From contig CAYPYN010000002.1 of NCBI GenBank assembly GCA_964415295.1, positions 24,485-88,484 of the forward strand: 64,000 bases of DNA, in the 5' to 3' direction. The stretch comes from an uncultured Bacteroidota bacterium. GTDB taxonomy: Bacteria; CLD3; SB21. Below the pieces are notes generated by a model that saw nothing but the letters and a program-made list of their open reading frames with translations, was not told where the DNA came from and ran no database searches. Below, piece by piece: positions 32,414-57,727 of this stretch; the stretch's first letter is position 1; each line of letters opens with the position of its first letter. The position numbers and the translations under genes are program-made.

Positions 32414-32478
32414 AGATCCTCCTTCAGGATAAATAATGGAATACGTTAATTCAATGGATGAGATGTTCCCCATAGAGA

Positions 32479-33021
32479 CTACTTTGCATTTTCGACCTGG
32501 AATCCTACTTTTAGTTTTTCCCAAGTCAACGCAACAGAGGCTTTATTGTCACCGGATTTTGATACGGCAAAGGATAGGCTTTCCTGGAATTCGTTCGGCT
32601 GCGGTTTGACCGTGATCCGAAGCGCGTCATTTTCCTGTTTATAGCTGAAACTGCCCCAGGCCTTAGAATCGTTGCTGAATATGATGATCCATTCGTTCTT
32701 AGACGGAATTGAATGCAGACCGTATGTGCCGGCCGCCAGTTTTTTTCCGTCGATCAAAACATCTTTGGAGAAGCTGACGGTGGTATTCTCGTTGGCCCCC
32801 GTGCGCCAGACCTTATTGTAAGGCACCAGTCCGCCCCAAATCTCACGGCCTTTGACCGATGGACTGGAATAGCTGACGGTGATCGTATTGCCGTCCAGCG
32901 ACAGCGAAGCCGTTGCCGGCGGACTGGGACGAGCGGATTTGTCCTGTCCGCGAACCTCAGGTGACAGAGAGACCAGGCAACAAACAAACATAAGCCAGGT
33001 TTTCAGTTCGGTGATTTTCAT
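32479..33021 (-). CDS. DUF2911 domain protein (paralog 2, core only)
   Basis: ATG at 33021 preceded by GGAGGA; signal peptide; same core motifs (GREIWGGLVPYNKVWRTGANENTTVSF, AAGTYGL). Confidence 0.55.
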   Translation of the reverse strand: MKITELKTWLMFVCCLVSLSPEVRGQDKSARPSPPATASLSLDGNTITVSYSSPSVKGREIWGGLVPYNKVWRTGANENTTVSFSKDVLIDGKKLAAGTYGLHSIPSKNEWIIIFSNDSKAWGSFSYKQENDALRITVKPQPNEFQESLSFAVSKSGDNKASVALTWEKLKVGFQVENAK

Positions 33022-33178: not shown

Positions 33179-34009
33179 TTACTTCTTTTTCTTCCACTCC
33201 GCGAGCGTTTCTTCGGTTTGTTTCAGGTTAAACGGCGGTTCCGGCTGAGCTTTACCGTATTGGACCGCTTTTTCCATCAGCTTGATCGCGTCCGGCATCT
33301 TGTTGAATTTGGCCAATAGAAGCGCCTTGACCCGCGTATTGCCATAGTTTTCCTTGATCGCTATGGAAATGTCGATCCATTTCATCGCTTCGTCCAGATT
33401 AATGTCATTTTCGAGGCAATAATTCGCAGCCTGCATGGCGGCTTGCGGGCCGATCGCAGAACGGGCTTTGGCCAGAACAAGCGCCTGTGTTTCTACCTCA
33501 ACTTTGAACGCAATTTTCAATTTTTCCCACTGAAGAACAACCATTGTCGAATTATCGGTTACGTCCGCAAACGAGAATTCCATACGTTCGGTCATTTCTG
33601 ACGACTGCGGTTTCACCTTGAACCGAAGCGCGTCGTTCTCGGGTTTATAATTGAAAGCGCCCCAGAGTTTAGCATCTTTACTCAGGATCACGGTCCATTC
33701 GTCTGTTCCGGGAATTGTCTGAAATCCATAGACGCCGGGTGCCAGTTTAGTCCCTTCCACTTTCACCGTGTCTCCGAAGGTAATGGTCGTATTTTCATTG
33801 GCGCCCGTCCGCCAGACTTCGTTGAACGGCACCAGTTTGCCCCAGATCTCACGGCCTTTGACACCGGGCCGGGAATAGGCGATCGATATGTCTGTGATAC
33901 CCACCGTCTGGACAACTGTGGCCTTGGGGCTTGAACGCGGAATGGCTACCTGCGCCTCTAAAGATGAAACATAAAAAACAGCCAAAAGTAACATGAACAG
34001 GTTTTTCAT
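33179..34009 (-). CDS. DUF2911 domain protein with C-terminal helical extension (paralog 3)
   Basis: ATG at 34009; signal peptide (MKNLFMLLLAVFYVSSLEA); same core motifs (GREIWGKLVPFNEVWRTGANENTTITF). Confidence 0.55.
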   Translation of the reverse strand: MKNLFMLLLAVFYVSSLEAQVAIPRSSPKATVVQTVGITDISIAYSRPGVKGREIWGKLVPFNEVWRTGANENTTITFGDTVKVEGTKLAPGVYGFQTIPGTDEWTVILSKDAKLWGAFNYKPENDALRFKVKPQSSEMTERMEFSFADVTDNSTMVVLQWEKLKIAFKVEVETQALVLAKARSAIGPQAAMQAANYCLENDINLDEAMKWIDISIAIKENYGNTRVKALLLAKFNKMPDAIKLMEKAVQYGKAQPEPPFNLKQTEETLAEWKKKK

Positions 34010-34151
34010 GATACGTCTCCTTATGGTTATGTGAATGGCAATTGTGATCCGGGAATGGCTTATTGTAAGAAAACTTTTTCGAAAAGACAACTTTTTTGCT
34101 GTCTTTACTGAATAAATTGTAGTAAAATTTATTTGAATTAACTTCCACACA

Positions 34152-40225: not shown

Positions 40226-40545
40226 GGGAATGGGTCTGAACGATGGAAGACTATGTTCATTTATCGTTTTGTGTCAATTGGTACTGATTGCGGTTAGTCC
40301 AATAGATCATAACCATGATTCCCGGAAACAAAAGAACCAGCTATGAATACTGAAAATGTAGTTATCCGATTACGATTAGTCAACTCTAATCCATATTTGC
40401 ATTTTGTGAATTCTTTCACTATATTTTATACACTCATTCACACCACCGTTTCTTAATTCAGAGACGCTCTCTGAAACACGGCATGATCTCCTCAGTTCAA
40501 AAAATACTCCCCCCATTACCACCTCACCTGCAGAAAGGAAGGACT

Positions 40546-42318
40546 ATGAAAAGACTATCGTTTCTCCTGCTGCTGATCGCCTGTTTTACCTTTGTTACCG
40601 CAGACACCTACGGACAGCTGGACCTGGGCAAAGGCAAAGACCTGATCAAGAAAAAAGACAAAAAGAAGGATGAGAAGAAAACCGAGAACAAAGAAACAAA
40701 GAAGACGGATGAAAGCTCCGCTCAAAAAGCCGAATCCGTAAACGCCAAATCCGGCGATACCGGATCCAACGACTGCGAAAAACTTTACAAGACCCTTGAG
40801 AATAATATCGATGCCATAGAAAAGGCCTATGAAAAAAAGAAGGACTATTCAAACTACTTCAATCAGGCGCAGGCCAACTTCGAGGAACTGGAGAAAAAAT
40901 GCCCAAAAACCGATGTCAGCGTTCTCGAACTGAGATTCCGTGCCGTTATGGGTAAAATCGATGAGGCCGAACAACCTGTCGTCGTAAACAAAGATGCGAT
41001 GTGGAAGGAACACGAGACCTTCATGCAGAAATTCCGGGAGGATGCGTACGCTTTGTACAACTCGAGCGTTAATCCCGATTACGCCGTTTCCAACGCCGAC
41101 GGATTCTACAAACAGGCTGTGGCCCTGAACTACGATACGCGCAAAGTACTCGCCGATTCGATCGTCTATAAAGTTTGGAAACCTAATGAACTGGAGCGCG
41201 GAACCATATGGAACAATTACGTCTGGGTTGCTAAGAATTTCTGGGAATTGTACAACGAAAAAGTGGACAAGGAAATAGAGCCTTTTATTAACGAATGTCT
41301 GCGTAATGCCCTGAATAGCAAAAATTCCGGGACCGATATTGCGGCGGGAAAGAATTGGGCGTACAGCGCCTCCATGATGGTCAAAGCCATGTATGCGATC
41401 AATCCCGAATCGCAGACGGCGGGCCGATACAAGAAGGATGCGGACAATCTCTATGCCGAATTGCGGGGCCGCATCGGCGCAAAATATTTTACCAGTAAAC
41501 TGCACGAAGAGAATGCCATGAAAGTGGTCTTTTCCAAAAAACCGATCACAATAAAAGCCGAGGATCCTGCAAGTTTTACCAATACTTTCAATGCAGGCGA
41601 TCCGATCTACGCCATGGGTTATTTTGAGACGGACCTGGCCACGTCATGTTCCAACCGTATGACCTACTGGCTCAACGTGTTCGTAGACATTCCGGCTTAT
41701 TATACAGGCACGGCCGATTTTTACGCTTCCTATCCGGTCACCGCGGTCAACGGAAAACAATCGTATGTCTTTGCGGAGATCGTGACGCCTATTGAAGCCA
41801 ATCATCAGCCGGAGTGTCTGGATCTCATGAAGGGATTCAAGAACCTCAAACCCGGAAAACATGTGATCCAGATCGATATCACGAACTACAGCGGCAACCC
41901 GATGGCCACGGGCAAATTCACGCTGGACTGCGCGTTCGACGGCATGGCAAAACTGGACGCCATGATCAAGCCGTATGAAGAAAAATTAATAGAATCGGTA
42001 CGTATGCCGAAAGCAGCAATCAGCAATCCCGCGCTGGAACAGAATATGAAGAATGTACTGAAGGAGATCTATCCCGACGAGACAGCCTTGCGCGTAGTGA
42101 TCACCGACAAGGACTGGACGTATGAGCGTAATGCGATAACAGGCATCATCGAATTCCGCTATATCGGAACGACCGTAGCGATCAAGAGAGCCAACGGCGA
42201 GTGCCTACTGTACGATATTTCCTTCAAGCAGGATTACAACGGGGCGACCTACGGCGATCTCTGGAAATACGGCGTTGGAGGTAATCAGCCGATCAAGTGT
42301 GAGAATGTAATGAAATGA
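40546..42318 (+). CDS. Hypothetical secreted protein with Lys-rich low-complexity region
   Basis: ATG at 40546 preceded by AAAGGAAGG; signal peptide MKRLSFLLLLIACFTFVTA; Lys-rich stretch (KKKDKKKDEKKTENKETKK); about 590 aa without recognised motifs. Confidence 0.5.
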   Translation: MKRLSFLLLLIACFTFVTADTYGQLDLGKGKDLIKKKDKKKDEKKTENKETKKTDESSAQKAESVNAKSGDTGSNDCEKLYKTLENNIDAIEKAYEKKKDYSNYFNQAQANFEELEKKCPKTDVSVLELRFRAVMGKIDEAEQPVVVNKDAMWKEHETFMQKFREDAYALYNSSVNPDYAVSNADGFYKQAVALNYDTRKVLADSIVYKVWKPNELERGTIWNNYVWVAKNFWELYNEKVDKEIEPFINECLRNALNSKNSGTDIAAGKNWAYSASMMVKAMYAINPESQTAGRYKKDADNLYAELRGRIGAKYFTSKLHEENAMKVVFSKKPITIKAEDPASFTNTFNAGDPIYAMGYFETDLATSCSNRMTYWLNVFVDIPAYYTGTADFYASYPVTAVNGKQSYVFAEIVTPIEANHQPECLDLMKGFKNLKPGKHVIQIDITNYSGNPMATGKFTLDCAFDGMAKLDAMIKPYEEKLIESVRMPKAAISNPALEQNMKNVLKEIYPDETALRVVITDKDWTYERNAITGIIEFRYIGTTVAIKRANGECLLYDISFKQDYNGATYGDLWKYGVGGNQPIKCENVMK

Positions 42319-42391
42319 TCCCTGCGGTGTGTTGTGGTTGGGTGCGCCGTTTAAATGAGGGTTAGACACGCATCCGAATGAATAGAGGCTG

Positions 42392-42424
42392 AAAGCCCCT
42401 AAAACGAACAGTTTTAGGGGCTTT
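42392..42424 (+). terminator. Rho-independent terminator
   Basis: Stem AAAGCCCCTAAAAC / GTTTTAGGGGCTTT with short loop followed by CTCTTT. Confidence 0.7.
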
Positions 42425-42475
42425 CTCTTTAATATTAGGCGGTAGTTGGGACGTTACATACAGAACAATACATGT

Positions 42476-42696: not shown

Positions 42697-43179
42697 TTAA
42701 TTCAAGACATAATAACCGCTATTCAGAATTGCGGCAAAGCTGACCCAGAGCAAGTATGGGATGTTCAAGTACGCGGCCAACGGCCTTACTTTATGGAACA
42801 GATACATCATTGAGACAATGCTGATCCACAAAAGAAGGATCTCCAAAAGAGCAACGCCGATCAACTTGAAATAAAAGAATAGAAAACTCCATGCAAAGTT
42901 CAGCAGCATCTGGATTGAGAATACGGTGATAGCCAGTAGTCTTTCTTTTGATGCCTGCTCTTTCCAAATGAGAAACAATGAAATTCCCAGAAGTATGTAC
43001 AGAGAGGTCCATACCGGACCGAATACCCAATTAGGAGGACTAAAGGAGGGTTTGTTCAACGTTGCATACCATGTGGGGACTTCCTGAGAAGTGAACATTC
43101 CTGCTACAGCGCCAACCGACAAGGGTAACAACAACGAAACACTTAGTTTGATAATGTTCGGTATATTGGCCATAAACAT
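42697..43179 (-). CDS. tspO: TspO/MBR tryptophan-rich sensory protein
   Basis: 160-aa five-helix protein with conserved Trp/Pro pattern of TspO (WYATLNKPSFSPPNWVFGPVWTSLY...). Confidence 0.8.
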   Translation of the reverse strand: MFMANIPNIIKLSVSLLLPLSVGAVAGMFTSQEVPTWYATLNKPSFSPPNWVFGPVWTSLYILLGISLFLIWKEQASKERLLAITVFSIQMLLNFAWSFLFFYFKLIGVALLEILLLWISIVSMMYLFHKVRPLAAYLNIPYLLWVSFAAILNSGYYVLN

Positions 43180-43199
43180 TCCTATCTTTTCAGGCTATT

Positions 43200-43949
43200 C
43201 TAAAATGTATAGGATACCCCAACGGCCACGTAATGGAATAAGGAAAAAGTATATACTTCATCATTATCCGCGCCTCCTTCCAGTATACGATACCCGGCTT
43301 TGATCCCAAGCCGATCGGACAAGTCATAGGATGCAGCGCATAGCACATCTATGGCTCTTCCCTGCGGAGCCGCGAGCGCATCGCCTTCCAAGAGAAAACC
43401 AAGCTTTTCGTGTGAACGCCAGAATAATCTGAAATTGATGATCGGTACAAAACCAACATTGGATTTCTCACCGAAAACTCCCTGAGACGAAAGCGCAATT
43501 CTCGCATCTCTGATCTTTGCCGTAAATCCTAACCCGCATTCGAGGCCGGGATTCCGCACAAAATCGTAACGGTACGTTAACCTGTATGAATTGAATTTGT
43601 AGGAACCTCTCAGATCGCTATTTGCGAGAAATGTCTTTCCGGCAAATTCAACATCTTGGTCAATTCGCCCTTTGGATTTCACGGTCAATGGGGCGAGTAA
43701 TAAAGACAGAGTATGGGCCGAACCAAAAGTGTAATTGAGTTTCATCCTATAGAAAATACCGGAACTCGGCTTCAGATCATCTTTCAAGGAAATAAGAGTA
43801 CCCCCGTCACCCGGTATGCGTATATCATTGTAACCGGTGCTGACAAGGCCTGTTTCAATATCCATACTTGCCTGGGCATGCAATGGCGGCGTCAGACAAC
43901 CGCTTAGCCATACCATCACTACTGCAGCCAGTAAAATTCTTATTTTCAT
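43200..43949 (-). CDS. Hypothetical outer-membrane beta-barrel protein
   Basis: Signal peptide; alternating beta pattern; C-terminal ...VAVGVSYTF ending in Phe. Confidence 0.4.
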   Translation of the reverse strand: MKIRILLAAVVMVWLSGCLTPPLHAQASMDIETGLVSTGYNDIRIPGDGGTLISLKDDLKPSSGIFYRMKLNYTFGSAHTLSLLLAPLTVKSKGRIDQDVEFAGKTFLANSDLRGSYKFNSYRLTYRYDFVRNPGLECGLGFTAKIRDARIALSSQGVFGEKSNVGFVPIINFRLFWRSHEKLGFLLEGDALAAPQGRAIDVLCAASYDLSDRLGIKAGYRILEGGADNDEVYTFSLFHYVAVGVSYTF

Positions 43950-44033: not shown

Positions 44034-44846
44034 TCAATTCCCTCTTTTCGTCAGTTTCTCTTCCATCTTTATGATCTGCTCTTTCAGCCGTTGTATATCT
44101 TCTCTCAACTCATGGTTTTCATCCTGGATCAAATGTCCGATCTTTTCAACGCCCTCTTCGTTTGTCTTTTGCTGCACTTCGCTCATGGTATTGACCACGA
44201 TCGCAATGAAAATATTCAGCGTGGTATAAGAAGCGAGCAGAATGAATATGATGAAATATATATTGGCGAGAGGAAATTCCTTCATAATTTCCCTGGATAT
44301 CTCAGCCCATCCTTCAAGTGTCATTATCTGGAATAAGGAAAACATTGAGGCCCCAAGACTGCCGAACCATTCCGGAAAAGCGGCGCCAAAGAGTTTTGTG
44401 CCGATGACGGCAAATACATAGAACACAAGGGCCAGCAAGACAAAGATCCATCCAAGGCTGGGCAGCGAATGAAGAAGCGACTCAACTATGAAGCGCAGCT
44501 TCGGTACATTCTTGATAAGACGCAGAGACCTGAAAATCCTTAATGATCTTAATACAGCCAGCGTCCCGGACTCGGGAAGAAGAGCAATGGCTACGATTGA
44601 AAAATCGAACACGTTCCAGCCGCTTCTGAAAAATGAAAACCCATGAGCGTACAGCTTCAAAAGTATTTCCAGAACAAAAACGGTCAGAATTATGCTGTCA
44701 ATTAAGAGAAGCGTGTCCCCGATCGACGACATTACTTTATCGGAGGTCTCAAAGCCTATCGTAATTGAATTAAAAACGATCAATCCTATAATAGAATTCT
44801 GAACGTATTTACTTTCAACAAAAGTTTTGAGTCTTTCCCTGTTCAT
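44034..44846 (-). CDS. Voltage-gated cation channel, NaChBac/BacNaV family
   Basis: Single six-TM domain; S4 with Arg every third residue (LRSLRIFRSLRLIK); pore segment FQIMTLEGWAEI (compare NaChBac FQVVTLESWAS); C-terminal coiled coil. Confidence 0.7.
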   Translation of the reverse strand: MNRERLKTFVESKYVQNSIIGLIVFNSITIGFETSDKVMSSIGDTLLLIDSIILTVFVLEILLKLYAHGFSFFRSGWNVFDFSIVAIALLPESGTLAVLRSLRIFRSLRLIKNVPKLRFIVESLLHSLPSLGWIFVLLALVFYVFAVIGTKLFGAAFPEWFGSLGASMFSLFQIMTLEGWAEISREIMKEFPLANIYFIIFILLASYTTLNIFIAIVVNTMSEVQQKTNEEGVEKIGHLIQDENHELREDIQRLKEQIIKMEEKLTKRGN

Positions 44847-46105: not shown

Positions 46106-46843
46106 CTATTTCGATTCTGACCGCACTTTGGAATATATGCTTTTACTTTGGCTGACTTTCGATGTAAAAGTACCCCTGTTTCTAACCGTGATACCTCCAT
46201 TTTTCACATCGTAACTCTTCTTGGCAAGAATAGCATAGTTGATCAACCATGTCGCCAAAGCACCCGCCGCAAATATGTATGATTGCTTGCGCTGTGCAAC
46301 AGCTTTACTGTAATACTTTTCTTTAAGTTTCTTCCTATAATCACTGTAATTCTTCTCAGCTGAATACTCGTATACAATACTTGCTGCGAGTGAGGTATAG
46401 CCCAACGCTCCCCATAACAAGTTCAATTTTTCGCCTGTCAATTCATACGTACCATAGCCGGGATATTTGGTCGAATACCACATATTCTGACCAATGTCAT
46501 TTGGCAACAATCTCACGGCACTGACTTCAAATGCGATCTCCAGTTCCTTTGCGTAAGGAAAATCATCACGCCATTTCCAGATTATCTCTTTCTGACCCCC
46601 CCCTTTAACGTTACGAATGTCACCGCTCACACTCTTCAGATGGAATCTTTGCCTTCCTTTGTCTATTGCCACACATGTCACATAATAATCCTCCTGGAGC
46701 ATGCTGCCTGAGATGTCATATGTAATGCGAAGACTGTCATTCATATTGACGAAATCGACGTTAGTGATCAGGCCTCCTTTCAACTGGCCAAACAAACAAC
46801 ACGGCATAACCGTCAAGGCAAATAGCATGGTAAAAGTTCTCAT
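46106..46843 (-). CDS. Hypothetical protein (signal peptide, C-terminal hydrophobic segment)
   Basis: ATG at 46843 (MRTFTMLFALTV...); no recognised family. Confidence 0.35.
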   Translation of the reverse strand: MRTFTMLFALTVMPCCLFGQLKGGLITNVDFVNMNDSLRITYDISGSMLQEDYYVTCVAIDKGRQRFHLKSVSGDIRNVKGGGQKEIIWKWRDDFPYAKELEIAFEVSAVRLLPNDIGQNMWYSTKYPGYGTYELTGEKLNLLWGALGYTSLAASIVYEYSAEKNYSDYRKKLKEKYYSKAVAQRKQSYIFAAGALATWLINYAILAKKSYDVKNGGITVRNRGTFTSKVSQSKSIYSKVRSESK

Positions 46844-46984
46844 TCTGTCTCCATTTCGGATACAATAGTCAATGCAATAGGTTTTTGACCGCCATTCATT
46901 AATTCTAGTCAAAATAGCCGAACTTTGCTCTGTGTTCTGACAGTCAACTGTCAAATAGTCCATGATTACATAAGTCAACGTTCA

Positions 46985-48370
46985 TCACTTATGCACCTTC
47001 CTCACGAAATCCTCTACTTCAGGAACACCGCCCTGGAGAACGAGATAACCGTTGTAAGGCTCGCGTTCGGTGATGTCGTAACCGATCGGCGTAAGCATCA
47101 TCTTTTTTACTTCGACGGGATCTTCGGTCTGGCCGAGCACCCAGCCGAGCTTGATATAAGCCGTCTCGGGAAGCATATTGCCCAGCGGCACGACGCCTTT
47201 GGCCATCATGTCGCGCCCGGTGTCATAAACGAACATGTGCACGTAGCCCCAGATCGTCTGCACAACCATGAAGACCGACACGTCCTTGGCTTTGGCCTCT
47301 TCGATGGCAGGATAGAGTTCTTTATTTACATGTCCCAGCCCTGTGCCGACGATGACGATGCCTTTGTAGCCTTTTTCGATCATGGAGAACATCACGTCGG
47401 GTTTCATGCCCGGGTAATAATACAGCATCGTCGCTTTTTCGCTGAAGAACGGATAGATGTCCACATTCTTATCCTTTCGGCGGTGATTGTATTCCTTTTT
47501 GATCGGCGTGATCTTTTTTCTCGTGACCATCGCCACGGGCGTGTCACCGATCGTACGGAAAGTTGATCGATACGACGAATGCATCTTGCGCACGCGCGTG
47601 CCGCGGTGCAGTAAGCCGTATTCATCCGACGTCGGGCCGAACATACACACCATGACTTCCGCGATGTCGGCATTGCCGGCGGTATACATCGCGTGCATGA
47701 GATTCAGCGCCGCATCGGAACTCGGCCGGTCGGACGACCTTTGAGACCCAACCATGATGATGGGCACAGGCGAATTCTGCACCATGTACGTCAGGACGGC
47801 AGCGGTATGCTGGAGCGTGTCCGTGCCGTGGCCGATCACGATGCCGTCGATGCCGTGGCGTATCTCTTTGACAATGGCATGCGCCAGCGCGATGTATTGC
47901 TTCGGGCCCATATTCTCGCTGAATACGGCGAAGATCTTCTCCGTCTCCAGATTGCAGATCTCGGCGAGTTCGGGCACCGCGCCGTAGAGTTCCCCCGGCG
48001 AAAAGGCCGGGATCACGGCGCCCGTTCGGTAGTCGAGCCTCGATGCGATCGTGCCGCCCGTGCCGAATAGTTTCACGTACGGCAGGCCTTTGGTGGTCGG
48101 AAACTGTTTCTCCGGTATCTGGTAATTGGCTTTTTTGTAGCCGGTTTCGCGGATGGCGGTAATGGTCTTCACGTCCACGCCGATATTGTACCCCGACGCG
48201 ATCTTCAGAACGATGTGTTCGTCGTCGGTATTCTCCGCACGCGGGAGTATCGTTCCCTGAAAAAGTCCGCGCGTGGATTCGATATCCACCGACGCCCATA
48301 CGCGGGCCGTGTATTTTTTGAGGACCTCTAAGGCGCGTCCTTTGTAGCCCTGGAATATGTTGTCGCTCAT
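46985..48370 (-). CDS. gatD: Glutamyl-tRNA(Gln) amidotransferase subunit D-like (archaeal-type GatD)
   Basis: 461 aa; GatD-specific N-terminal domain (GYKGRALEVLKKY..., DEHIVLKIASGYNIGV) followed by asparaginase-type domain with GTGGTIAS. Confidence 0.75.
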   Translation of the reverse strand: MSDNIFQGYKGRALEVLKKYTARVWASVDIESTRGLFQGTILPRAENTDDEHIVLKIASGYNIGVDVKTITAIRETGYKKANYQIPEKQFPTTKGLPYVKLFGTGGTIASRLDYRTGAVIPAFSPGELYGAVPELAEICNLETEKIFAVFSENMGPKQYIALAHAIVKEIRHGIDGIVIGHGTDTLQHTAAVLTYMVQNSPVPIIMVGSQRSSDRPSSDAALNLMHAMYTAGNADIAEVMVCMFGPTSDEYGLLHRGTRVRKMHSSYRSTFRTIGDTPVAMVTRKKITPIKKEYNHRRKDKNVDIYPFFSEKATMLYYYPGMKPDVMFSMIEKGYKGIVIVGTGLGHVNKELYPAIEEAKAKDVSVFMVVQTIWGYVHMFVYDTGRDMMAKGVVPLGNMLPETAYIKLGWVLGQTEDPVEVKKMMLTPIGYDITEREPYNGYLVLQGGVPEVEDFVRKVHK

Positions 48371-48930: not shown

Positions 48931-50952
48931 TTAAGATATCGACGCTTGAACCTTCCCGCTCAATTCCGTCAGATTCATATTCCCCAGCGCCATGCGGCTC
49001 AATTGGCCCATCACCCAGCGGGAACAGGCGCCGTCCAGACTGGAATTATCGATCTGCGAGAATTTTTTGATCATGAACGGGATCAGTTCCGTGATCTCGT
49101 TCTTGGTCGCGGCTTTGTAACGGATATTGAGCAATACGGAATCAAAATCCAGTTTGGGATGATGGTAATATTCCACCAGCATCATACCCGCAATATTCAG
49201 TTCCATCCCGCGGTCTTTGAGGAACTTGAACAGGTCGTAGATCCGGTCGTAACTGAAATCCTTGGCGGTGGTATAATGATTCTCAACATATTTCATCTGA
49301 TGCCCGAGGAAGATACCGGTGTGGCGGTGCGGGATGCCGAGTTCGTCATGGATCTTCTCCATCAGCCCTACGAGATTCTTTTTGAGAATGAATGTATACG
49401 TGTCTTCCGGAACATTCCACGAGCGGAGCTGTTGTATACGGTCAAAGACGTCCACAGGAATGGCGCGGCGGATCGCTTCGATCTTGTCGTCATCGAGCGG
49501 GATAGGTGCGGAATCGGTATCCGGGTACATGCGGTCTGCGCCGGGAAGAACGCGTTCGAATACCGTCGTACCGTCATGCGATGACTTACGCGTCTCATTG
49601 GGAACGCCTTTGAAGGCCATGCGGCAGCGTTCCTCCACCGTCTCGATCGCCGTGGGAATATCCTCTTTCGGCCCCCACAGAACGATCCATGCATCATCGC
49701 CGCTGCAATTAAGCAATTTAACGATTCTCTCCGACTCCTGTTCGGCAATGTGCGTACGCATATTCTCCGAATGGATCATATTGGGTTTCTCAATACACGC
49801 GATCACTTTGAGCCGCGATGATATCTCATCGGCGAACATCTGACCGGGCTGAGTAAAATGCGATAATATACTCTTGAAGCCCGGCAGTCGAACGGCTACG
49901 ATCTCGTGTTTGGCAACTTTCGCCGCGGCCATCGGTTCGTAACTGAACGTCCAATCGTCCGGTTCAAGTTTGACGGATTCTGTTTTCCACGAATCCGGAT
50001 TGCGGACCTTTTTTTTCAGAAGTTCCACGATGCGCAGGAGCGCGAACTGCCGGAATGCCTCGTTGTGCGTCAATTGGGGCATCCAGCGCGTGTGCGCAAC
50101 GCCTTTGATCTCGACGCGTGTGCCGCCGCGGCAGCTGACATTGACGTCGGCGCGGGTGGAACCGATACCGGTCCGGACTTTTCCAGTACTGCGGTTCAAA
50201 AAACGGATATAATCCGCGCCTTCTTTTACTTCATCGGGATTCACAAAATCCGCATGCGTCACCGTTTCGATCAGCGGCATGCCGAGACGGTCCGTCTTGT
50301 ACACGCGCACATGGCCGATGTCGGAAATTTCCCGGCAGGAATCCTCTTCGATGCTCAACTGGATGAGGTTGACCGTCTTGTGTTTCAGCTGGATCTTCCC
50401 GCCGACGCCGATGATGGCCGTTCTCTGGAATCCGGTCGGAATACTGCCGTCGAGGTACTGCTTGCGGGTGATGTGAACTTCTCCCACGATATTCATCTTA
50501 TTCAAGATCGAGATCTCCAGCGCGATATCGAGCGCTTCCGGATCCATGGCGAAAGGCGGCGTATCGTCCACCTCATACGTACACGCCGTTTTATTTTTGA
50601 TGCGGTAAATAATGTTCTTTCGGGTCTTGAATTCCATCAGCGCCGTACCGTCGTACTCGCCCAGTTCGCTCAGCGTCGGGCGCATGTGGCGAATGACCTC
50701 CGCGTCGTAATCGTCGTGGGCGTTGTATTTTCCGGCCGGACAGCGGCAGAAAAGTTTCCGCCGTGTCAGCAGCTGCTGGTGAACTTCCAGTCCGGACTTG
50801 AATCCGATCCGGTCGTAATCTTCCTGCGTGGCATCTTTCCGGCTGACGTATCCGATGGCTTGTTTGCTTTGTTCGTAATTCTGCTGGGGATCAAAAGGCT
50901 GGTTCATGAGGATTGTGCACCATGTGAAGCATCGATTGATGTTGTCTTGCAA
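48931..50952 (-). CDS. gatE: Glutamyl-tRNA(Gln) amidotransferase subunit E-like (archaeal-type GatE)
   Basis: 673 aa; GatB/E catalytic core with GatE-type signature DYDRIGFKSGLEVHQQL...RKLFCRCP and insertion-sized extra length versus GatB. TTG start at 50952; alternative ATG at 50907. Confidence 0.75.
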   Translation of the reverse strand: MQDNINRCFTWCTILMNQPFDPQQNYEQSKQAIGYVSRKDATQEDYDRIGFKSGLEVHQQLLTRRKLFCRCPAGKYNAHDDYDAEVIRHMRPTLSELGEYDGTALMEFKTRKNIIYRIKNKTACTYEVDDTPPFAMDPEALDIALEISILNKMNIVGEVHITRKQYLDGSIPTGFQRTAIIGVGGKIQLKHKTVNLIQLSIEEDSCREISDIGHVRVYKTDRLGMPLIETVTHADFVNPDEVKEGADYIRFLNRSTGKVRTGIGSTRADVNVSCRGGTRVEIKGVAHTRWMPQLTHNEAFRQFALLRIVELLKKKVRNPDSWKTESVKLEPDDWTFSYEPMAAAKVAKHEIVAVRLPGFKSILSHFTQPGQMFADEISSRLKVIACIEKPNMIHSENMRTHIAEQESERIVKLLNCSGDDAWIVLWGPKEDIPTAIETVEERCRMAFKGVPNETRKSSHDGTTVFERVLPGADRMYPDTDSAPIPLDDDKIEAIRRAIPVDVFDRIQQLRSWNVPEDTYTFILKKNLVGLMEKIHDELGIPHRHTGIFLGHQMKYVENHYTTAKDFSYDRIYDLFKFLKDRGMELNIAGMMLVEYYHHPKLDFDSVLLNIRYKAATKNEITELIPFMIKKFSQIDNSSLDGACSRWVMGQLSRMALGNMNLTELSGKVQASIS

Positions 50953-52258: not shown

Positions 52259-53266
52259 CTACGCCCATTTTCCGAACCGTAGAAATTTGAAACCATCCGT
52301 ATGTTCATTCAATATTCTCTTCTTCTCATCATCCGAAACAAAGAATAATCCCGTTGCCAACGCATCGGTATCGCGGCAATTGTCGCCGATCACCGTTACG
52401 CTGGCAAATCCGGTGCGCTTTGGCATAGCCAGTTTCGGATTGATCAGATGGTGATACACATGACCTTCGGAAATGAAATACTGTTCATACGATCCCGAGG
52501 TAGCCACAGCCTGATCCTTCAGAGAAATCACTTCAATGATCTCCGAAGGGTTCTCCGGATCCTTTACTCCGACGCGCCAGGCTTTATCTTCGGAATTACC
52601 GCCAAGCGTTGCAATGTCGCCGCCAAGCCTTACCAGAGCCTGATCAATGCCTTCCTTCGCCAATACGGCTTTGGCGCGTTCCGATCCGTAACCTTTTCCA
52701 ATACCGCCAAGATCGATCTTAACGTCGGGCGTCAGCAGGCGAACCGTTGCGTGCGAGCCGTTTCTCGTCAGAAGGATCTTTTCCGAGAATTTAAGGTCGG
52801 CGAAACGAACCCATTGTTTTTCCGGCGGCGGTTCCGTCCGGTGCTTTATATCCCAGATGGAAGTGACTTTGCCCAAACCCGGTTCAAAGAATCCTTTCGT
52901 AGCATGCGACCAATGCAAAGCGCGTTCGATCAGGTCGGCCGTTTCATTGGAGATCCTGACATCCTGCGTATATCCCAGAAGATTGATCTGTCCTATTTCG
53001 CTGTTGTCCGAGAAATAGGTCAGCAATCGTTCCACACGGTTCAATTCCTCGTACGCGCTTTCGATGGCGCGAAACGCGAGACGTTCGTCGTCATGGACGA
53101 CCTGGATCTCGCCGATCGTTCCCATGAGCGGGCGCGTCATGCTGTACACGCGCCGGTTCCTGAATAGCACGGGACCAAGCCCTGCTCCCGCGATCAGGAA
53201 CAACGAACCTGCACCGATCTTTAAGAATTTTCTCCGGTCTATACCGGTCTTTGGGTTCTTCTCCAT
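52259..53266 (-). CDS. apbE: FAD:protein FMN transferase (ApbE family), Tat-signal
   Basis: Twin-arginine signal (DRRKFLKIGAG); ApbE-type motifs (GGIGKGY...); last gene of the Rnf cluster. Confidence 0.75.
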   Translation of the reverse strand: MEKNPKTGIDRRKFLKIGAGSLFLIAGAGLGPVLFRNRRVYSMTRPLMGTIGEIQVVHDDERLAFRAIESAYEELNRVERLLTYFSDNSEIGQINLLGYTQDVRISNETADLIERALHWSHATKGFFEPGLGKVTSIWDIKHRTEPPPEKQWVRFADLKFSEKILLTRNGSHATVRLLTPDVKIDLGGIGKGYGSERAKAVLAKEGIDQALVRLGGDIATLGGNSEDKAWRVGVKDPENPSEIIEVISLKDQAVATSGSYEQYFISEGHVYHHLINPKLAMPKRTGFASVTVIGDNCRDTDALATGLFFVSDDEKKRILNEHTDGFKFLRFGKWA

Positions 53267-53269
53267 ATG

Positions 53270-53455
53270 TTACCTTTCGCAAACTTTTTCGTCGTTGCAT
53301 CCATCGCATCGCCGTGCATGATCGGAACACGAAGAAGGAAGGTGTTCGAAATGATTCTTCGTTCGCATCTTACGGGCCAGGAACTGCACACCAAGCCAGC
53401 CCGTAGTCAGACAGGTTGCCGCTGTGATTCCGATGATGTATTGAGTAATTTCCAT
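53270..53455 (-). CDS. Small membrane protein with 4-Cys tail, NqrM/DUF539-like
   Basis: 61 aa: one TM helix (IIGITAATCLTTGWLGVQFL) then C-x6-C-x2-C-x5-C (CSDHARRCDGCNDEKVC); sits between rnfA and apbE. Confidence 0.4.
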   Translation of the reverse strand: MEITQYIIGITAATCLTTGWLGVQFLARKMRTKNHFEHLPSSCSDHARRCDGCNDEKVCER

Positions 53456-53463
53456 TCTAATAA

Positions 53464-54042
53464 TTAGTTTGAGCTGAATAAGCCGGCGAATCCCATGAAC
53501 GCCATGGAAAGCAATCCGGCGATGATAAGGCTCAGCGCCGTTCCTTGAATCAACTTGGGCACATCCATTACTTTCGTTTCTTCCCTAATGCCGGCCATCA
53601 GTACCAGCGCCAGCGTCATACCTCCTCCGCCTCCGATGGAATAGATCAGTCCCTGCACTAACCCGTATTCCTTCGTTGTCTGGAAAAGCGCCAGCGCCAG
53701 GATCGCGCAGTTGGTCGTGATCAGGGGAAGATAAATTCCAAGCGCCTTAAAAAGTTCCGGACTGAGTTTCTTTATGACCATTTCAACGAACTGCACCGTG
53801 CTGGCGATCACCACGATATAACTGATCAAACCCAGGTACGGGGCGAACGGCAGGATGTACGTATTCAACGCCCACGTGCACAGCGATGTAATGACCATAA
53901 CGAAGATATTGGCCAAACCCATGCGGAAAGCCGTCTGAACCCGGTCGGATACACCCAGGAACGGACAGATGCCGAGGAACGACGACAGCGTGAAGTTATT
54001 GATCACGAGCGCTGAAACGAATATCCAAAGCAGATCACCCAT
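53464..54042 (-). CDS. rnfA: Rnf electron-transport complex subunit A
   Basis: RnfA/NqrE pattern (LVINNFTLSSFLGICPFLGVS..., ...LPLITTNCAILA). Confidence 0.85.
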   Translation of the reverse strand: MGDLLWIFVSALVINNFTLSSFLGICPFLGVSDRVQTAFRMGLANIFVMVITSLCTWALNTYILPFAPYLGLISYIVVIASTVQFVEMVIKKLSPELFKALGIYLPLITTNCAILALALFQTTKEYGLVQGLIYSIGGGGGMTLALVLMAGIREETKVMDVPKLIQGTALSLIIAGLLSMAFMGFAGLFSSN

Positions 54043-54049
54043 CTTGCAC

Positions 54050-54697
54050 CTATGCTTTCTCCGCCAGTTTCATTTTCGCGCGTTCCGCCTGTTTACTCTT
54101 ATACCAGTTCACGAACAGCATCATAAAACCTAATAATAAAAATCCGCCCGGAGGCAGGATCATGATGACCCAAGGTTCGAAATGCGGACCGAAAAGGGAA
54201 ATACCAAACAGTGATCCGTTACCCAGAATTTCCCTGATTCCGCCCAGAGCCAACAACGCCAGAATGAACCCTACTCCCATTCCGAGCGCGTCCAATACAG
54301 AGAGCCACGCCGTATTCTTGTACGAAAAGGCTTCCTGTCTGCCCAGAATGATACAATTCACAACGATCAACGCGATAAATGCGCCGAGTTCTTTATGGAT
54401 CTTCGGAAATGCAGCCTGCAGTGAAAAATCAACGGCCGTCACAAAGGTTGCAATAATAACGACGAATGTCGTGATGCGGACCTGCTTGGGGATCCAGTTC
54501 CTCAAAACGGACACAAGCCAGCAGGATGCCACGAGAACAATCGTGGTCGCCAGTCCCATGGCTAAACCGTTGACCGCGGTATTGGTCACGGCCAGCGTGG
54601 GACACATGCCCAGTACGCTGACAAAGGTCGGGTTCTCTTTCCAGAGTCCTTTGATGAATTCCTGATATGCGCGTCCGTGTTCTTCCATCGAACTCAT
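54050..54697 (-). CDS. rnfE: Rnf electron-transport complex subunit E
   Basis: RnfE/NqrD pattern (VLGMCPTLAVTNTAVNGL, ...IALIVVNCIILGR); start overlaps the rnfG stop. Confidence 0.85.
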   Translation of the reverse strand: MSSMEEHGRAYQEFIKGLWKENPTFVSVLGMCPTLAVTNTAVNGLAMGLATTIVLVASCWLVSVLRNWIPKQVRITTFVVIIATFVTAVDFSLQAAFPKIHKELGAFIALIVVNCIILGRQEAFSYKNTAWLSVLDALGMGVGFILALLALGGIREILGNGSLFGISLFGPHFEPWVIMILPPGGFLLLGFMMLFVNWYKSKQAERAKMKLAEKA

Positions 54698-55380
54698 GGT
54701 TTTGTTCCGTAGGTTAATTGATTCTTCTGCACGTAGGCATCAATCGCCGTTCGCCATGTATCCAATGACTTCTGCATCGCACGCACGATCGCCTTGGACG
54801 AGATAGTGGCACCGGTGATCGTCTCTACCTGATTGGGCTGGGTTTTCTTGCCAGTTTTCACGGGTTCGATCTTGGGATCAACGGCCAGCGCGGTGAAATT
54901 GGATACAAAATGTTTATCCTTGTAGATCTTATCCCCTAAACCGGGTGTTTCCTTGCTGTCGAGTACTTCATAACCGATCACCATTTTTCCGACACCGTCA
55001 AAACCGTAGAGAATCCTAAGCATGTCGGCAAATCCCGGTTCGTTGCCGGGGATCGCAAAACCGATCACGGCGCCTTTTTCGTTGTACCCCAGAAAAATGC
55101 GAGGAACGGAACGATCGGACTGATTGACCTGCCTGACAAGCTGCCCGTTCTCGAGTATCATGGCCTCAAACTTGTTGCAACCCGGCAATACGCGGTATAC
55201 CGCTTCCTGCAAAGCTTCCTCTTTATTACGTTCAATGATGGGCAGCGTGAATACGTACGCACAAACCAGAACCAATCCTGAAAAGAATCCGGCTACCGCC
55301 AGCGTCGCGATCATCTGAAAGGAACTGGTTTCCTTCGTGGATAAGACAGGTATCTCTGTATGTATCTTCTGTTCTTCCAT
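54694..55380 (-). CDS. rnfG: Rnf electron-transport complex subunit G (FMN-binding)
   Basis: ATG at 55380 overlapping the rnfD stop by 1 nt; N-terminal TM helix; FMN-binding-domain motif (ITGATISSKAIV). The ORF-track 5' extension to 55536 overlaps rnfD. Confidence 0.75.
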   Translation of the reverse strand: MEEQKIHTEIPVLSTKETSSFQMIATLAVAGFFSGLVLVCAYVFTLPIIERNKEEALQEAVYRVLPGCNKFEAMILENGQLVRQVNQSDRSVPRIFLGYNEKGAVIGFAIPGNEPGFADMLRILYGFDGVGKMVIGYEVLDSKETPGLGDKIYKDKHFVSNFTALAVDPKIEPVKTGKKTQPNQVETITGATISSKAIVRAMQKSLDTWRTAIDAYVQKNQLTYGTKP

Positions 55381-57724: not shown

Positions 57725-57727
57725 AGT

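What the first reader, a model, noticed from the sequence alone, without database searches (positions are those of the whole stretch)
44034..44846. BacNaV/NaChBac-type voltage-gated channel with TLEGW selectivity filter
The S4 helix has four Arg at every third position, and the pore sequence FQIMTLEGWAE differs from the Na+-selective TLESW by Ser to Gly. Filter substitutions in this family are known to shift Na+/Ca2+ selectivity. It lies near TspO and a NAD-binding/Rnf-rich region.
Basis: partly seen in the sequence, partly recalled or inferred. Interest (0 to 1): 0.45.

Follow-up and report, generated by a model that had tools for sequence, protein, structure and literature searches.

The report
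Bacterial voltage-gated channel with calcium-type filter
This is an intact bacterial voltage-gated cation channel, related to the well-studied sodium channel NavAb, whose pore filter (TLEGWAE) matches known calcium channels rather than sodium channels, so it probably conducts calcium, though nobody has measured this.

Summary
The ORF at 44034-44846 (-) encodes a complete 270-aa single-domain voltage-gated channel of the BacNaV family. It has S1-S4 with R100/R103/R106/R109 (+K112), a P1-filter-P2 pore, S6 and a C-terminal coiled coil. TLEGWAE aligns column for column with NavAb 175-TLESWSM-181.

- **Known filter.** TLEGW is the filter of CavMr, the only native prokaryotic Ca2+ channel described, and of human T-type Cav3 domain I.
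- **Different clade.** The protein belongs to the canonical NavAb-like clade, not CavMr's clade (34% identity; 91-92% bootstrap split).
- **Position 7.** The Met-to-Glu change at filter position 7 matters as much as Ser-to-Gly at position 4.

Published mutants show Gly4 alone does not give Ca2+ permeability in NavAb or NaChBac. An acidic position 7 does (NaChBac LESWAD, PCa/PNa 17), and Gly4 plus Asp7 gives 218 in CavMr.

In my sample, Gly4 never co-occurs with Met7 (0/18, against 59/74 for Ser4). TLEGWAE arose at least twice independently.

Best reading: a Ca2+-preferring voltage-gated channel, conserved across Ignavibacteria. It is a new member of a known kind. A 66%-identical sequence with the same filter already sits, untested, in the CavMr paper's source data. 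Interest is moderate.

The parts
44034..44846 (-). Complete CDS (270 aa plus stop) of a single-domain voltage-gated cation channel of the BacNaV family, NavAb-like clade
   Evidence: ORF list; Pfam Ion_trans E=3.7e-46; PDB phmmer hits NavMs 5.5e-66 and NavAb 2e-60 over residues 5-264; AlphaFold model pLDDT 80 with best Foldseek hits CavAb/NavAb/NavMs, E~5e-15
44748..44810 (-). S1 helix (residues 13-33), with N26 and the GFETS motif (E33, extracellular countercharge)
   Evidence: Model helix H13-33; N26, G31 and T34 invariant in alignment A1; aligned to NavAb LNGITMGLETS
44649..44717 (-). S2 helix (about residues 44-66), with D50, F57 (hydrophobic gasket), E60 and K64
   Evidence: F57 and E60 invariant; aligned to NavAb N49/F56/E59/R63
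44583..44621 (-). S3 helix (residues 76-88), with W77, F80 and D81 (intracellular countercharge)
   Evidence: Model helix H76-88; W77, F80 and D81 invariant
44508..44558 (-). S4 voltage-sensor helix (residues 97-113): R100, R103, R106, R109 every third residue, then K112
   Evidence: Read from the sequence; R100/R103/R106/R109 invariant in A1; aligned to NavAb R99/R102/R105/R108
44469..44504 (-). S4-S5 linker helix (residues 115-126)
   Evidence: Model helix H115-126
44388..44465 (-). S5 helix (residues 128-153)
   Evidence: Model helix H128-153, pLDDT 84-93
44322..44357 (-). P1 pore helix (residues 164-175, ASMFSLFQIM)
   Evidence: Model helix H164-175; F172 and Q173 invariant
44301..44321 (-). 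Selectivity filter T176-L-E178-G179-W-A181-E182 (filter positions 1-7)
   Evidence: DNA read directly; same alignment columns as NavAb 175-TLESWSM-181 and CavMr 183-TLEGWVD-189; aligned by HMMER to Cav3.2 and Cav3.3 domain I TLEGWVD/TLEGWVE
44277..44309 (-). P2 pore helix (residues 180-190, WAEISREIMKE). It is one residue shorter than NavAb's WSMGIVRPLME and lacks the MGIVRP signature.
   Evidence: Model helix H180-190; the gap falls in the same column as in CavMr and NavPp
44172..44267 (-). S6 pore-lining helix (residues 194-225), with the conserved N211
   Evidence: Model helix begins at residue 194; N211 invariant
44040..44171 (-). C-terminal neck and coiled-coil region (residues 226-269, ...ELREDIQRLKEQIIKMEEKL)
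   Evidence: Continuous helix to residue 269 in the model; aligned to full-length NavMs up to chain residue 268
43200..43949 (-). Context only: the gene 84 bp downstream. It encodes a 249-aa protein with a signal peptide and a C-terminal ...VSYTF, and I predict it is an outer-membrane beta-barrel. No Pfam, NCBIfam or PDB match. Not shown to work with the channel.
   Evidence: An orthologue sits directly downstream of the channel in L001, L002, L003 and L006 but not in L004, L005 or L007
42697..43179 (-). Context only: TspO/MBR family protein (160 aa), 20 bp after the beta-barrel gene. Not shown to work with the channel.
   Evidence: Pfam TspO_MBR 3.4e-49; synteny with the channel in 4 of 7 Ignavibacteria loci and 0 of 77 more distant loci

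Best explanation
The gene encodes one subunit of a voltage-gated cation channel of the BacNaV family that is expected to assemble as a homotetramer. Four subunits would form a central pore from S5-P1-filter-P2-S6. Four peripheral S1-S4 sensors would move their S4 arginines (R100-R109) outward on depolarisation and open the S6 gate, and the C-terminal coiled coil would hold the tetramer together. All of this is inferred from strong homology to NavAb and NavMs, not measured. By descent the protein is a NavAb-like (canonical) BacNaV. Its filter, however, has changed from the Na+-selective TLESWSM type to TLEGWAE: Gly at position 4, no Met at position 7, and a ring of four Glu at position 7. I infer that this makes the channel Ca2+-preferring (PCa/PNa well above 1, plausibly tens to hundreds), so that depolarisation admits Ca2+ rather than only Na+. 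This would be a second, independently derived route to a prokaryotic Cav-like filter. The physiological role in Ignavibacteria is unknown.
For: **Family, architecture and filter position.**
- Pfam Ion_trans matches at 3.7e-46.
- NavMs and NavAb match over the full length at E=1e-60 to 1e-66.
- The AlphaFold model (pLDDT 80) shows S1-S6, P1, P2 and a long C-terminal helix. Its best Foldseek hits are CavAb, NavAb and NavMs.
- Gating charges and countercharges are conserved.

**Clade.**
- NJ trees built with the sequences from Shimomura 2020 put the window protein with the NavAb-like group. The split (AnclNav + Bacillus) versus the rest has 91-92% bootstrap support.
- The window protein forms a 99% clade with that paper's 'Bacteroidetes bacterium' TLEGWAE sequence. 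This holds with the filter columns removed.

**Selectivity inference from published electrophysiology.**
- CavMr TLEGWVD has PCa/PNa 218. Its G4S mutant (TLESWVD) gives 11.9, V6T gives 40 and D7M gives 144 (PMC7041947).
- NaChBac LESWAD gives 17, against 0.15 for wild type (PMC2229573). So Ser4 plus acidic 7 gives about 12-17 in two different scaffolds, and adding Gly4 gives about 200.
- In NavAb, Met181 excludes divalent ions. M181A raises PCa/PNa about 10-fold (PMC12919392).

**Natural co-variation.**
- Among 70%-identity clusters, Gly4 occurs with Met7 in 0 of 18, against 59 of 74 for Ser4. Gly4 occurs with Asp or Glu at position 7 in 14 of 18, against 3 of 74 (Fisher p about 1e-10, not corrected for phylogeny).
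- Gly4 arose repeatedly inside the clade. TLEGWAE itself recurs in a Steroidobacteraceae MAG (L029) that never groups with the window clade (0% bootstrap).

**Conservation and resemblance to Cav filters.**
- The filter is invariant apart from A/V at position 6 and E/D at position 7 in the 120 closest homologues.
- The W-x-[DE]-[IV] spacing without the following Gly matches CavMr, NavPp and Cav3 domain I.
Against: No current has been measured for this protein or for any natural NavAb-like channel with Gly4 that I could find. Several published results argue for caution:
- In the canonical scaffolds Gly4 does not act as it does in CavMr. NaChBac S192G is unchanged.
- NavAb S178G is Li+-preferring with PCa/PNa <0.05, and even NavAb S178G/M181A reaches only 0.47.
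- CavMr D7M (TLEGWVM) stays at 144 whereas NavAb TLEGWSM is <0.05, so the scaffold or position 6 matters greatly.

The window protein also differs from CavMr. It has Ala, not Val, at position 6, and Val6 supports Ca2+ selectivity in CavMr. It has Glu, not Asp, at position 7. It lacks CavMr's Cys-containing insertion of about 22 residues between P2 and S6. It is only 34% identical to CavMr. Finally, the co-variation statistic is not phylogenetically corrected.
Confidence: 0.5

Rival explanations
1. The channel is Na+-selective (perhaps Li+-preferring), like the engineered NavAb S178G 'LivAb'. On this reading Gly4 merely widens the outer filter and the Glu7 ring does not create a divalent-ion site.
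For: The protein is NavAb-like by descent. NavAb S178G has PLi/PNa 2.18 and PCa/PNa <0.05, and S178G/M181A reaches only 0.47. NaChBac S192G is unchanged. Filter positions 1-3 and 5, and the P1 helix FQIMTLE, are identical to Na+-selective relatives.
Against: Neither NavAb mutant had an acidic residue at position 7. NaChBac S195D alone gives PCa/PNa 17. Natural Gly4 filters never keep Met7, the residue shown to exclude divalent ions (0 of 18). The P2 helix is remodelled and one residue shorter than NavAb's.
Confidence: 0.27
2. The channel is a weakly selective cation channel (PCa/PNa about 1-10, also passing K+ or Cs+), comparable to NsvBa, CavMr-G4S or NaChBac LESWAD.
For: Several filters one residue away from the characterised Ca2+ filters lose monovalent selectivity. 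CavMr V6T, G4S and G4D have PK/PNa 0.7-1.5, and NaChBac LESWAD was described as relatively nonselective. The window protein has Ala rather than Val at position 6.
Against: The filter is strictly conserved over 120 homologue clusters and TLEGWAE recurs convergently. This suggests a tuned selectivity state rather than a relaxed one. The argument is weak, because a nonselective channel could also be under selection.
Confidence: 0.18
3. The gene is a decaying or non-functional BacNaV copy whose filter change reflects relaxed constraint.
For: Nothing specific. I considered it only because the filter departs from the majority TLESWSM.
Against: The ORF is intact with all gating charges, countercharges, pore helices and the coiled coil. 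Homologues are 74-100% identical across many Ignavibacteria MAGs with an invariant TLEGW core.
Confidence: 0.02

Closest known systems
CavMr (Meiothermus ruber), the native prokaryotic voltage-gated Ca2+ channel of the 'AnclNav' clade (Shimomura et al., eLife 2020, PMC7041947)
   Same: Both are single-domain 6TM voltage-gated channels. Both have the filter core TLEGW with Gly at position 4 and an acidic residue at position 7. Neither has a Gly after position 7, so the filter-to-P2 spacing is the same.
   Different: The two are only 34% identical. The window protein falls on the other side of a 91-92% bootstrap split, in the NavAb-like clade. It has Ala, not Val, at position 6 and Glu, not Asp, at position 7. 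It lacks the Cys-containing loop of about 22 residues between P2 and S6. Its selectivity has not been measured.
NavAb / NavMs (canonical Na+-selective BacNaVs) and the engineered NavAb S178G 'LivAb' (Maeda et al., JGP 2026, PMC12919392)
   Same: They share the clade, length, voltage sensor, P1 helix (FQ[IV]MTLE), short turret and C-terminal coiled coil. Identity is 40-46%. LivAb has the same TLEGW core.
   Different: NavAb has Ser4, Ser6 and Met7 followed by GIVRP. The window protein has Gly4, Ala6 and Glu7 followed by ISREI, which is one residue shorter. LivAb retains Met181 and stays impermeable to Ca2+.
NaChBac pore mutants LEGWAS and LESWAD (Yue et al., JGP 2002, PMC2229573)
   Same: The window filter LEGWAE is the double change S192G + S195(D/E) relative to NaChBac LESWAS. 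Position 6 (Ala) is identical.
   Different: Only the single mutants were tested (PCa/PNa 0.15 and 17). The double mutant was not, the position-7 residue used was Asp rather than Glu, and the scaffold is from the Bacillus clade (36% identity).
Domain I of human T-type Ca2+ channels Cav3.1, Cav3.2 and Cav3.3
   Same: HMMER aligns the window's FQIMTLEGWAEI to Cav3.2 FQVITLEGWVDI and Cav3.3 FQVITLEGWVEI. The close relative L005 (85% identical) carries TLEGWVE, identical to the Cav3.3 domain I filter.
   Different: Cav3 channels are four-domain proteins with an asymmetric filter, in which domains II-IV differ and domain II carries the 'beacon' Asp. A homotetramer presents four identical TLEGWAE strands.
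'Bacteroidetes bacterium' sequence in Figure 1-source data 1 of Shimomura et al. 2020
   Same: It has the identical filter TLEGWAE, the same ISR start to P2 and the same S4 (RIFRALRLIKNVPKLRF). It is 66% identical and forms a 99% bootstrap clade with the window protein.
   Different: It is a different organism and was used only as a tree taxon. I found no functional data for it.

Membership tests
BacNaV (single-domain voltage-gated Na+/Ca2+ channel family; Pfam Ion_trans) | About 270-aa six-helix architecture: S1-S4 sensor plus S5-P1-filter-P2-S6 pore | tested here: met
   Ion_trans covers residues 13-228 at 3.7e-46. The model's helices match S1-S6, P1 and P2. Best Foldseek hits are CavAb, NavAb and NavMs at E about 5e-15.
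BacNaV (single-domain voltage-gated Na+/Ca2+ channel family; Pfam Ion_trans) | S4 with four Arg at every third position, plus conserved countercharges and a hydrophobic gasket | tested here: met
   R100/R103/R106/R109 (+K112); E33, D50, F57, E60 and D81 align to NavAb E32, N49, F56, E59 and D80.
BacNaV (single-domain voltage-gated Na+/Ca2+ channel family; Pfam Ion_trans) | T-L-E-x-W filter between two pore helices, with the Glu ring at filter position 3 | tested here: met
   T176-L-E178-G-W180 lies in the same columns as NavAb T175-L-E177-S-W179.
BacNaV (single-domain voltage-gated Na+/Ca2+ channel family; Pfam Ion_trans) | C-terminal neck and coiled coil that tetramerises | tested here: inconclusive
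   A continuous helix runs to residue 269 with heptad-like LKEQIIKMEEKL, and it aligns to the full-length NavMs C-terminus. Oligomeric state cannot be tested with a monomer model.
BacNaV (single-domain voltage-gated Na+/Ca2+ channel family; Pfam Ion_trans) | Voltage-activated cation current as a homotetramer | not testable with these tools
   Requires electrophysiology.
NavAb-like (canonical) BacNaV clade | Phylogenetic placement with NavAb, NavMs and NavSp rather than with the Bacillus or AnclNav groups | tested here: met
   NJ trees with 200 bootstraps: the (AnclNav + Bacillus) versus rest split has 91-92% support, and the result holds with the filter columns removed. Identity is 40-50% to NavAb-like members and 31-36% to AnclNav and Bacillus members.
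Canonical Na+-selective BacNaV filter type (TLESWSM / TLESWAS) | Ser at filter position 4 | tested here: not met
   Gly179, codon GGA.
Canonical Na+-selective BacNaV filter type (TLESWSM / TLESWAS) | Met (NavAb-like) or Ser (Bacillus) at position 7, followed by G-[IV]-x-R-P | tested here: not met
   Glu182 is followed by ISREI, one residue shorter.
CavMr-type native prokaryotic Cav (AnclNav clade) | Membership of the AnclNav clade | tested here: not met
   The window protein falls outside the AnclNav group (85-95% bootstrap for the four AnclNav sequences alone) and is 34% identical to CavMr.
CavMr-type native prokaryotic Cav (AnclNav clade) | Gly at filter position 4, the key determinant (G4S drops PCa/PNa from 218 to 11.9) | tested here: met
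   Gly179; determinant data from PMC7041947.
CavMr-type native prokaryotic Cav (AnclNav clade) | Val at filter position 6, a supportive determinant (V6T drops PCa/PNa to 40) | tested here: not met
   Ala181 in the window protein. 18 of the 120 close homologues have Val (TLEGWVE).
CavMr-type native prokaryotic Cav (AnclNav clade) | Acidic residue at filter position 7 | tested here: met
   Glu182, where CavMr has Asp. In CavMr this residue is dispensable (D7M gives 144).
CavMr-type native prokaryotic Cav (AnclNav clade) | Extended P2-S6 loop with a Cys pair | tested here: not met
   The insertion of about 22 residues seen in CavMr and NavPp is absent from the window protein.
CavMr-type native prokaryotic Cav (AnclNav clade) | High Ca2+ over Na+ selectivity (PCa/PNa >100) | not testable with these tools
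   Requires patch-clamp measurement of reversal potentials.

The most novel reading that the evidence does not exclude
The Ignavibacteria TLEGW[AV][ED] channels are native, highly Ca2+-selective voltage-gated channels that evolved inside the canonical Na+-channel (NavAb-like) clade, independently of CavMr. They would have got there by a coupled change: Ser4 to Gly, plus Met7 to Asp or Glu with a one-residue shortening of P2. The same solution, TLEGWAE, was reached again in Steroidobacteraceae, and close relatives carry the exact human Cav3.3 domain I filter (TLEGWVE). This would make them a second lineage of prokaryotic Cav on a scaffold that already crystallises well, and a natural experiment explaining why Gly4 alone fails in NavAb.
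Probability: 0.3. Interest if true: 0.6.

Novelty: new member of a known kind. Interest (0 to 1): 0.36.

Why it matters
Only one native prokaryotic Ca2+ channel, CavMr, has been characterised, and it still lacked a structure when last reviewed in 2021 (PMC8677417). The literature now disagrees about its key residue. One proposed rule holds that Gly at position 4 (the 'beacon' site) makes one-domain channels Ca2+-selective (PMC10120453). Yet the same substitution in NavAb and NaChBac does not (PMC12919392, PMC2229573). Natural NavAb-like channels that pair Gly4 with an acidic position 7, like this one, are the missing data point. They can be tested directly by routine patch clamp and sit on a scaffold that has crystallised many times. 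If they are Ca2+-selective, voltage-gated Ca2+ entry would be common in Ignavibacteria and several proteobacterial lineages, and Ca2+ selectivity would have evolved repeatedly from Na+ channels through a defined two-site change. If they are Na+/Li+-selective, the Gly4 rule is wrong outside the CavMr scaffold.

Tried and rejected
- **Functional link to TspO and the downstream beta-barrel gene.** The order channel / 249-aa beta-barrel / TspO recurs in L001, L002, L003 and L006. It is absent from L004, L005 (the closest relative, 85% identical) and L007, and from 77 more distant BacNaV loci. I treat it as local synteny, not a system.
- **Link to the Rnf operon or 'NAD-binding' genes.** These lie at least 9 kb away with unrelated genes in between, so I rejected it.
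- **Membership of CavMr's AnclNav clade.** Tested by phylogeny and rejected.
- **NCBIfam.** It has no specific model for the channel; the only hit is a spurious sub-threshold LiaS match.
- **The 249-aa beta-barrel protein.** It has no Pfam, NCBIfam or PDB sequence match.
- **The exhaustive representative search.** It was dominated by eukaryotic four-domain channels, whose summed scores rank highest. Only 30 single-domain representatives were usable.
- **NavAb position-7 acidic single mutants (M181D/E, TLESWSD).** I found nothing in the open library, and Tang et al. 2014 was not retrievable under the PMC id I tried from memory.
- **A technical error.** My first ORF extraction for L029 and L009 used the wrong frame. 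I corrected it.
- **Promoter and terminator scan.** It gave only weak sigma-70-like matches, including one at 44919-44891, upstream of the start codon. This is not informative for this phylum.
- **Cluster look-up for the exact protein.** It returned no name or organism. The Ignavibacteria assignment rests on the names of 74-85% identical homologues.
Full report

Yes. The window has an intact ATG-initiated ORF at 44034..44846 on the minus strand, encoding 270 aa. The DNA reads ACA CTT GAA GGA TGG GCT GAG at 44321-44301, which is T176-L-E-G179-W-A-E182. S4 reads LRSLRIFRSLRLIK, with Arg at residues 100, 103, 106 and 109 and a further Lys at 112.

- Pfam Ion_trans covers residues 13-228 (E=3.7e-46).
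- phmmer against PDB sequences gives end-to-end matches to the bacterial sodium channels NavMs (5hvx, E=5.5e-66, residues 5-264) and NavAb (3rvy, E=2e-60). The eukaryotic four-domain channels score higher only because their four repeats add up.
- An AlphaFold2 model built from alignment A1 (mean pLDDT 80) shows S1 (13-33), S2, S3 (76-88), S4 (97-113), the S4-S5 linker (115-126), S5 (128-153), P1 (164-175), P2 (180-190), S6 from residue 194, and one long C-terminal helix to residue 269.
- The model's best Foldseek matches in the PDB are CavAb, NavAb and NavMs (E about 5e-15, 39-46% identity).
- In a MAFFT alignment with the characterised channels, TLEGWAE sits in exactly the columns of NavAb 175-TLESWSM-181, NaChBac TLESWAS and CavMr 183-TLEGWVD-189. 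The sensor countercharges E33, D50, E60 and D81 and the gasket residue F57 are conserved.

**2. What organism and how conserved?**

The 120 best database homologues are 74-100% identical. Where they are named, they come from Ignavibacteriales, Ignavibacteriaceae or Melioribacteraceae MAGs. Every one carries TLEGWAE (90), TLEGWVE (18) or TLEGWAD (12), and S4 is nearly invariant. The gene is therefore a conserved, selected component of Ignavibacteria genomes and not a one-off variant.

**3. What was already known about this filter?**

- **CavMr.** TLEGW is the core of the filter of CavMr from Meiothermus ruber (TLEGWVD), the first native prokaryotic voltage-gated Ca2+ channel, with PCa/PNa 218 (PMC7041947). 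In CavMr, Gly4 is the main determinant (G4S gives 11.9, G4D gives 7.7), Val6 supports selectivity (V6T gives 40) and Asp7 is dispensable (D7M gives 144).
- **Human T-type channels.** The same motif is the domain I filter of Cav3 channels. HMMER aligned the window's FQIMTLEGWAEI to Cav3.2 FQVITLEGWVDI and Cav3.3 FQVITLEGWVEI.
- **A proposed rule.** A 2023 classification states that one-domain channels with Gly at this 'beacon' site are Ca2+-selective (PMC10120453).
- **Contrary evidence.** NaChBac S192G (LEGWAS) left PCa/PNa unchanged at 0.15 (PMC2229573). NavAb S178G ('LivAb', TLEGWSM) gained Li+ preference (PLi/PNa 2.18) but kept PCa/PNa <0.05 (PMC12919392).
- **Position 7.** The same NavAb paper shows that Met181 excludes divalent ions. 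M181A raises PCa/PNa to 0.36-0.47. In NaChBac an Asp at position 7 alone (LESWAD) gives PCa/PNa 17.

**4. Where does the window protein sit?**

I took the 35 most relevant sequences from Figure 1-source data 1 of the CavMr paper, added the window protein and built NJ trees with 200 bootstraps. I then repeated this with 58 sequences, adding species representatives and cluster representatives.

- The window protein is 40-53% identical to NavAb-like channels and only 34% identical to CavMr.
- The split that puts AnclNav plus the Bacillus channels on one side and the window protein with the NavAb-like channels on the other has 91-92% support. This holds whether or not the seven filter columns are removed.
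- The window protein forms a 99% clade with the 'Bacteroidetes bacterium' sequence from that paper. That sequence has the identical filter TLEGWAE and is 66% identical overall.
- This clade is sister (74-77% support) to the Reichenbachiella and Cyclobacteriaceae channels, which carry TLESWSS or TLESWAT.
- The window protein also lacks the Cys-containing insertion of about 22 residues between P2 and S6 that marks CavMr and NavPp.

It is therefore not a CavMr orthologue. It is a canonical-clade BacNaV that has acquired a Cav-like filter.

**5. A pattern in natural sequences**

A scan of GTDB species genomes returned at least 596 BacNaV loci, of which I kept the best 80. Together with the four loci fetched earlier, these 84 loci carry TLESWSM (67), TLESWSS (6), TLESWSQ (2) and TLEGW[AV][DE] (9).

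I pooled these with the 30 single-domain representatives from the exhaustive search and the eLife set, then collapsed them at 70% identity:

| Filter position 4 | With Met at position 7 | With Asp/Glu at position 7 |
|---|---|---|
| Gly | 0 of 18 | 14 of 18 |
| Ser | 59 of 74 | 3 of 74 |

Both contrasts give Fisher p of about 1e-10. This is not corrected for phylogeny, and the crude clade filter let in three AnclNav sequences.

The trees show that Gly4 arose many times inside the clade. Tabrizicola (TLEGWAD) is sister to NavSp (TLESWSM) with 91% support. Reichenbachiella copy 2 (TLEGWST) is sister to a TLESWSS channel with 100% support. The full heptad TLEGWAE recurs in a Steroidobacteraceae MAG (L029), which groups with gammaproteobacterial TLESWSM channels and never with the window clade (0 of 200 bootstraps).

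Most of the Gly4 / acidic-7 sequences, including the window protein, also lack the Gly that follows Met181 in NavAb. Their P2 helix starts W-x-[DE]-[IVM], as in CavMr, NavPp and Cav3 domain I.

So nature couples the Ser4-to-Gly change to loss of the divalent-excluding Met7, usually replacing it with a carboxylate. This is exactly the combination that the mutagenesis studies have not tested in a canonical scaffold.

**6. Most likely mechanism**

- **Shown by homology.** The protein has all the parts of a BacNaV subunit.
- **Inferred from the family.** It forms a homotetramer, S4 moves on depolarisation and opens the S6 gate, and the coiled coil stabilises the tetramer.
- **Inferred selectivity.** Ser4 plus an acidic position 7 gives PCa/PNa of 12-17 in two unrelated scaffolds (CavMr G4S, TLESWVD; NaChBac LESWAD). 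Restoring Gly4 in CavMr multiplies this about 18-fold. The window filter is LEGWAE. I therefore expect a Ca2+-preferring pore, and I put about 0.5 on PCa/PNa above roughly 10.

The main counter-evidence is that NavAb-type scaffolds respond differently to Gly4 than CavMr does. TLEGWSM gives <0.05 in NavAb, whereas TLEGWVM gives 144 in CavMr. The window protein also has Ala rather than Val at position 6.

The rivals are a Na+/Li+-selective channel like LivAb (0.27), a weakly selective cation channel (0.18) and a decaying gene (0.02).

**7. Genomic context**

The channel gene has a 240-bp upstream spacer. Downstream, after 84 bp, comes a 249-aa predicted outer-membrane beta-barrel gene with no family match, and after a further 20 bp comes TspO.

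This three-gene order is kept in four Ignavibacteria loci. In the three whose gene tables I read (L001-L003), an NmrA/DUF2867 gene and a CIA30 gene lie upstream, and one of these loci (L003) also has a DPRP gene nearby. The order is broken in three others, including the closest relative (L005, 85% identical), and is absent from 77 more distant loci. I do not treat it as a functional system. The Rnf operon is at least 9 kb away.

**8. Novelty and verdict**

The family is known. The filter core is known from CavMr and Cav3. A 66%-identical sequence with the same heptad was already used as a tree taxon in 2020. This is therefore a new member of a known kind. What is not known is the selectivity of any natural NavAb-like channel with Gly4 plus an acidic position 7. 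I found no such measurement. The finding is worth a modest score: a specialist would not be astonished, but it offers a cheap, direct test of a current disagreement about what makes a tetrameric channel Ca2+-selective.

Noticed in passing
window 46985-48370 (-) and 48931-50952 (-): These two genes look like an archaeal-type Glu-tRNA(Gln) amidotransferase pair, in what appears to be a bacterial (Ignavibacteria) genome. GatD scores 490.8 bits on NCBIfam NF003217 (cutoff 310) and 486.6 on TIGR02153 gatD_arch (cutoff 324). GatE scores 382 on TIGR00134 gatE_arch (cutoff 319.55). GatDE is generally regarded as an archaeal signature; that statement is from my own knowledge.
   Followed up: no
window 42697-43949 (-); loci L001, L002, L003, L006: The gene order channel / 234-249-aa predicted outer-membrane beta-barrel (no Pfam, NCBIfam or PDB match; ends ...VSYTF) / TspO is kept in 4 of 7 Ignavibacteria loci. 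In L001-L003, whose gene tables I read, NmrA/DUF2867 and CIA30 genes lie upstream, and Pirin, PGPGW, TerC or DPRP genes are variously interleaved or nearby. This could be a light- or oxidative-stress neighbourhood. The TspO/beta-barrel pairing recalls mitochondrial TSPO-VDAC, but nothing ties it to the channel.
   Followed up: partly
locus L004, 4123-5079 (+) (Melioribacteraceae MAG): A Na_Ca_ex family antiporter gene (318 aa) lies two genes upstream of the channel orthologue, which also has the TLEGWAE filter. This may be coincidence, but a Ca2+ extrusion gene next to a putative Ca2+ entry channel is worth a wider synteny check.
   Followed up: no
locus L029, about 5892-6800 (+) (Steroidobacteraceae MAG): This gammaproteobacterial BacNaV has the identical heptad TLEGWAE followed by IAR. 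It groups with TLESWSM gammaproteobacterial channels rather than with the window clade, so the full filter appears to have evolved convergently.
   Followed up: yes
locus L005, 6001-6804 (+) (Ignavibacteriaceae MAG); 18 of the 120 homologues: Close relatives (85% identical) carry TLEGWVE. This is identical to the domain I filter of human Cav3.3 seen in the 7wli alignment, and one conservative change (Asp to Glu) from CavMr's TLEGWVD.
   Followed up: partly
window 52259-62934 (-): This stretch holds ApbE (52259-53266) and an Rnf-type complex: two Rnf-Nqr membrane subunits, an FMN_bind subunit, RnfD and RnfC (53464-57724). Next comes an unusually large 1443-aa protein combining PFOR domains with several 4Fe-4S motifs (57728-62059), and then an RnfB-like FeS protein (62056-62934).
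   Followed up: no
window 31319-32524 (-) and 33179-34150 (-): Two nearby paralogous DUF2911 proteins (E=5e-47 and 5e-52). One has C-terminal TPR repeats.
   Followed up: no
window 40483-42318 (+), 42391-42425 (+), 46106-46978 (-): A 611-aa secreted, Lys-rich protein and a 290-aa protein have no Pfam or NCBIfam family. The 611-aa gene is followed by a strong terminator-like hairpin with a 15-bp stem at 42391-42425.
   Followed up: no
loci L005-L084 (titles): Judging by organism names, the TLESWSM carriers are mostly marine, halophilic or alkaliphilic Proteobacteria (Rhodobacteraceae, Stappia, Roseibium, Ectothiorhodospiraceae). Several Gly4 carriers come from what I recall (not checked here) to be mostly freshwater, soil or sludge lineages (Ignavibacteria, Steroidobacteraceae, Asticcacaulis, Tabrizicola, Meiothermus). 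There are soda-lake and marine exceptions (Thioalkalivibrio, Desulfonatronospira, Reichenbachiella). A possible link between habitat Na+ and filter type was not tested.
   Followed up: no
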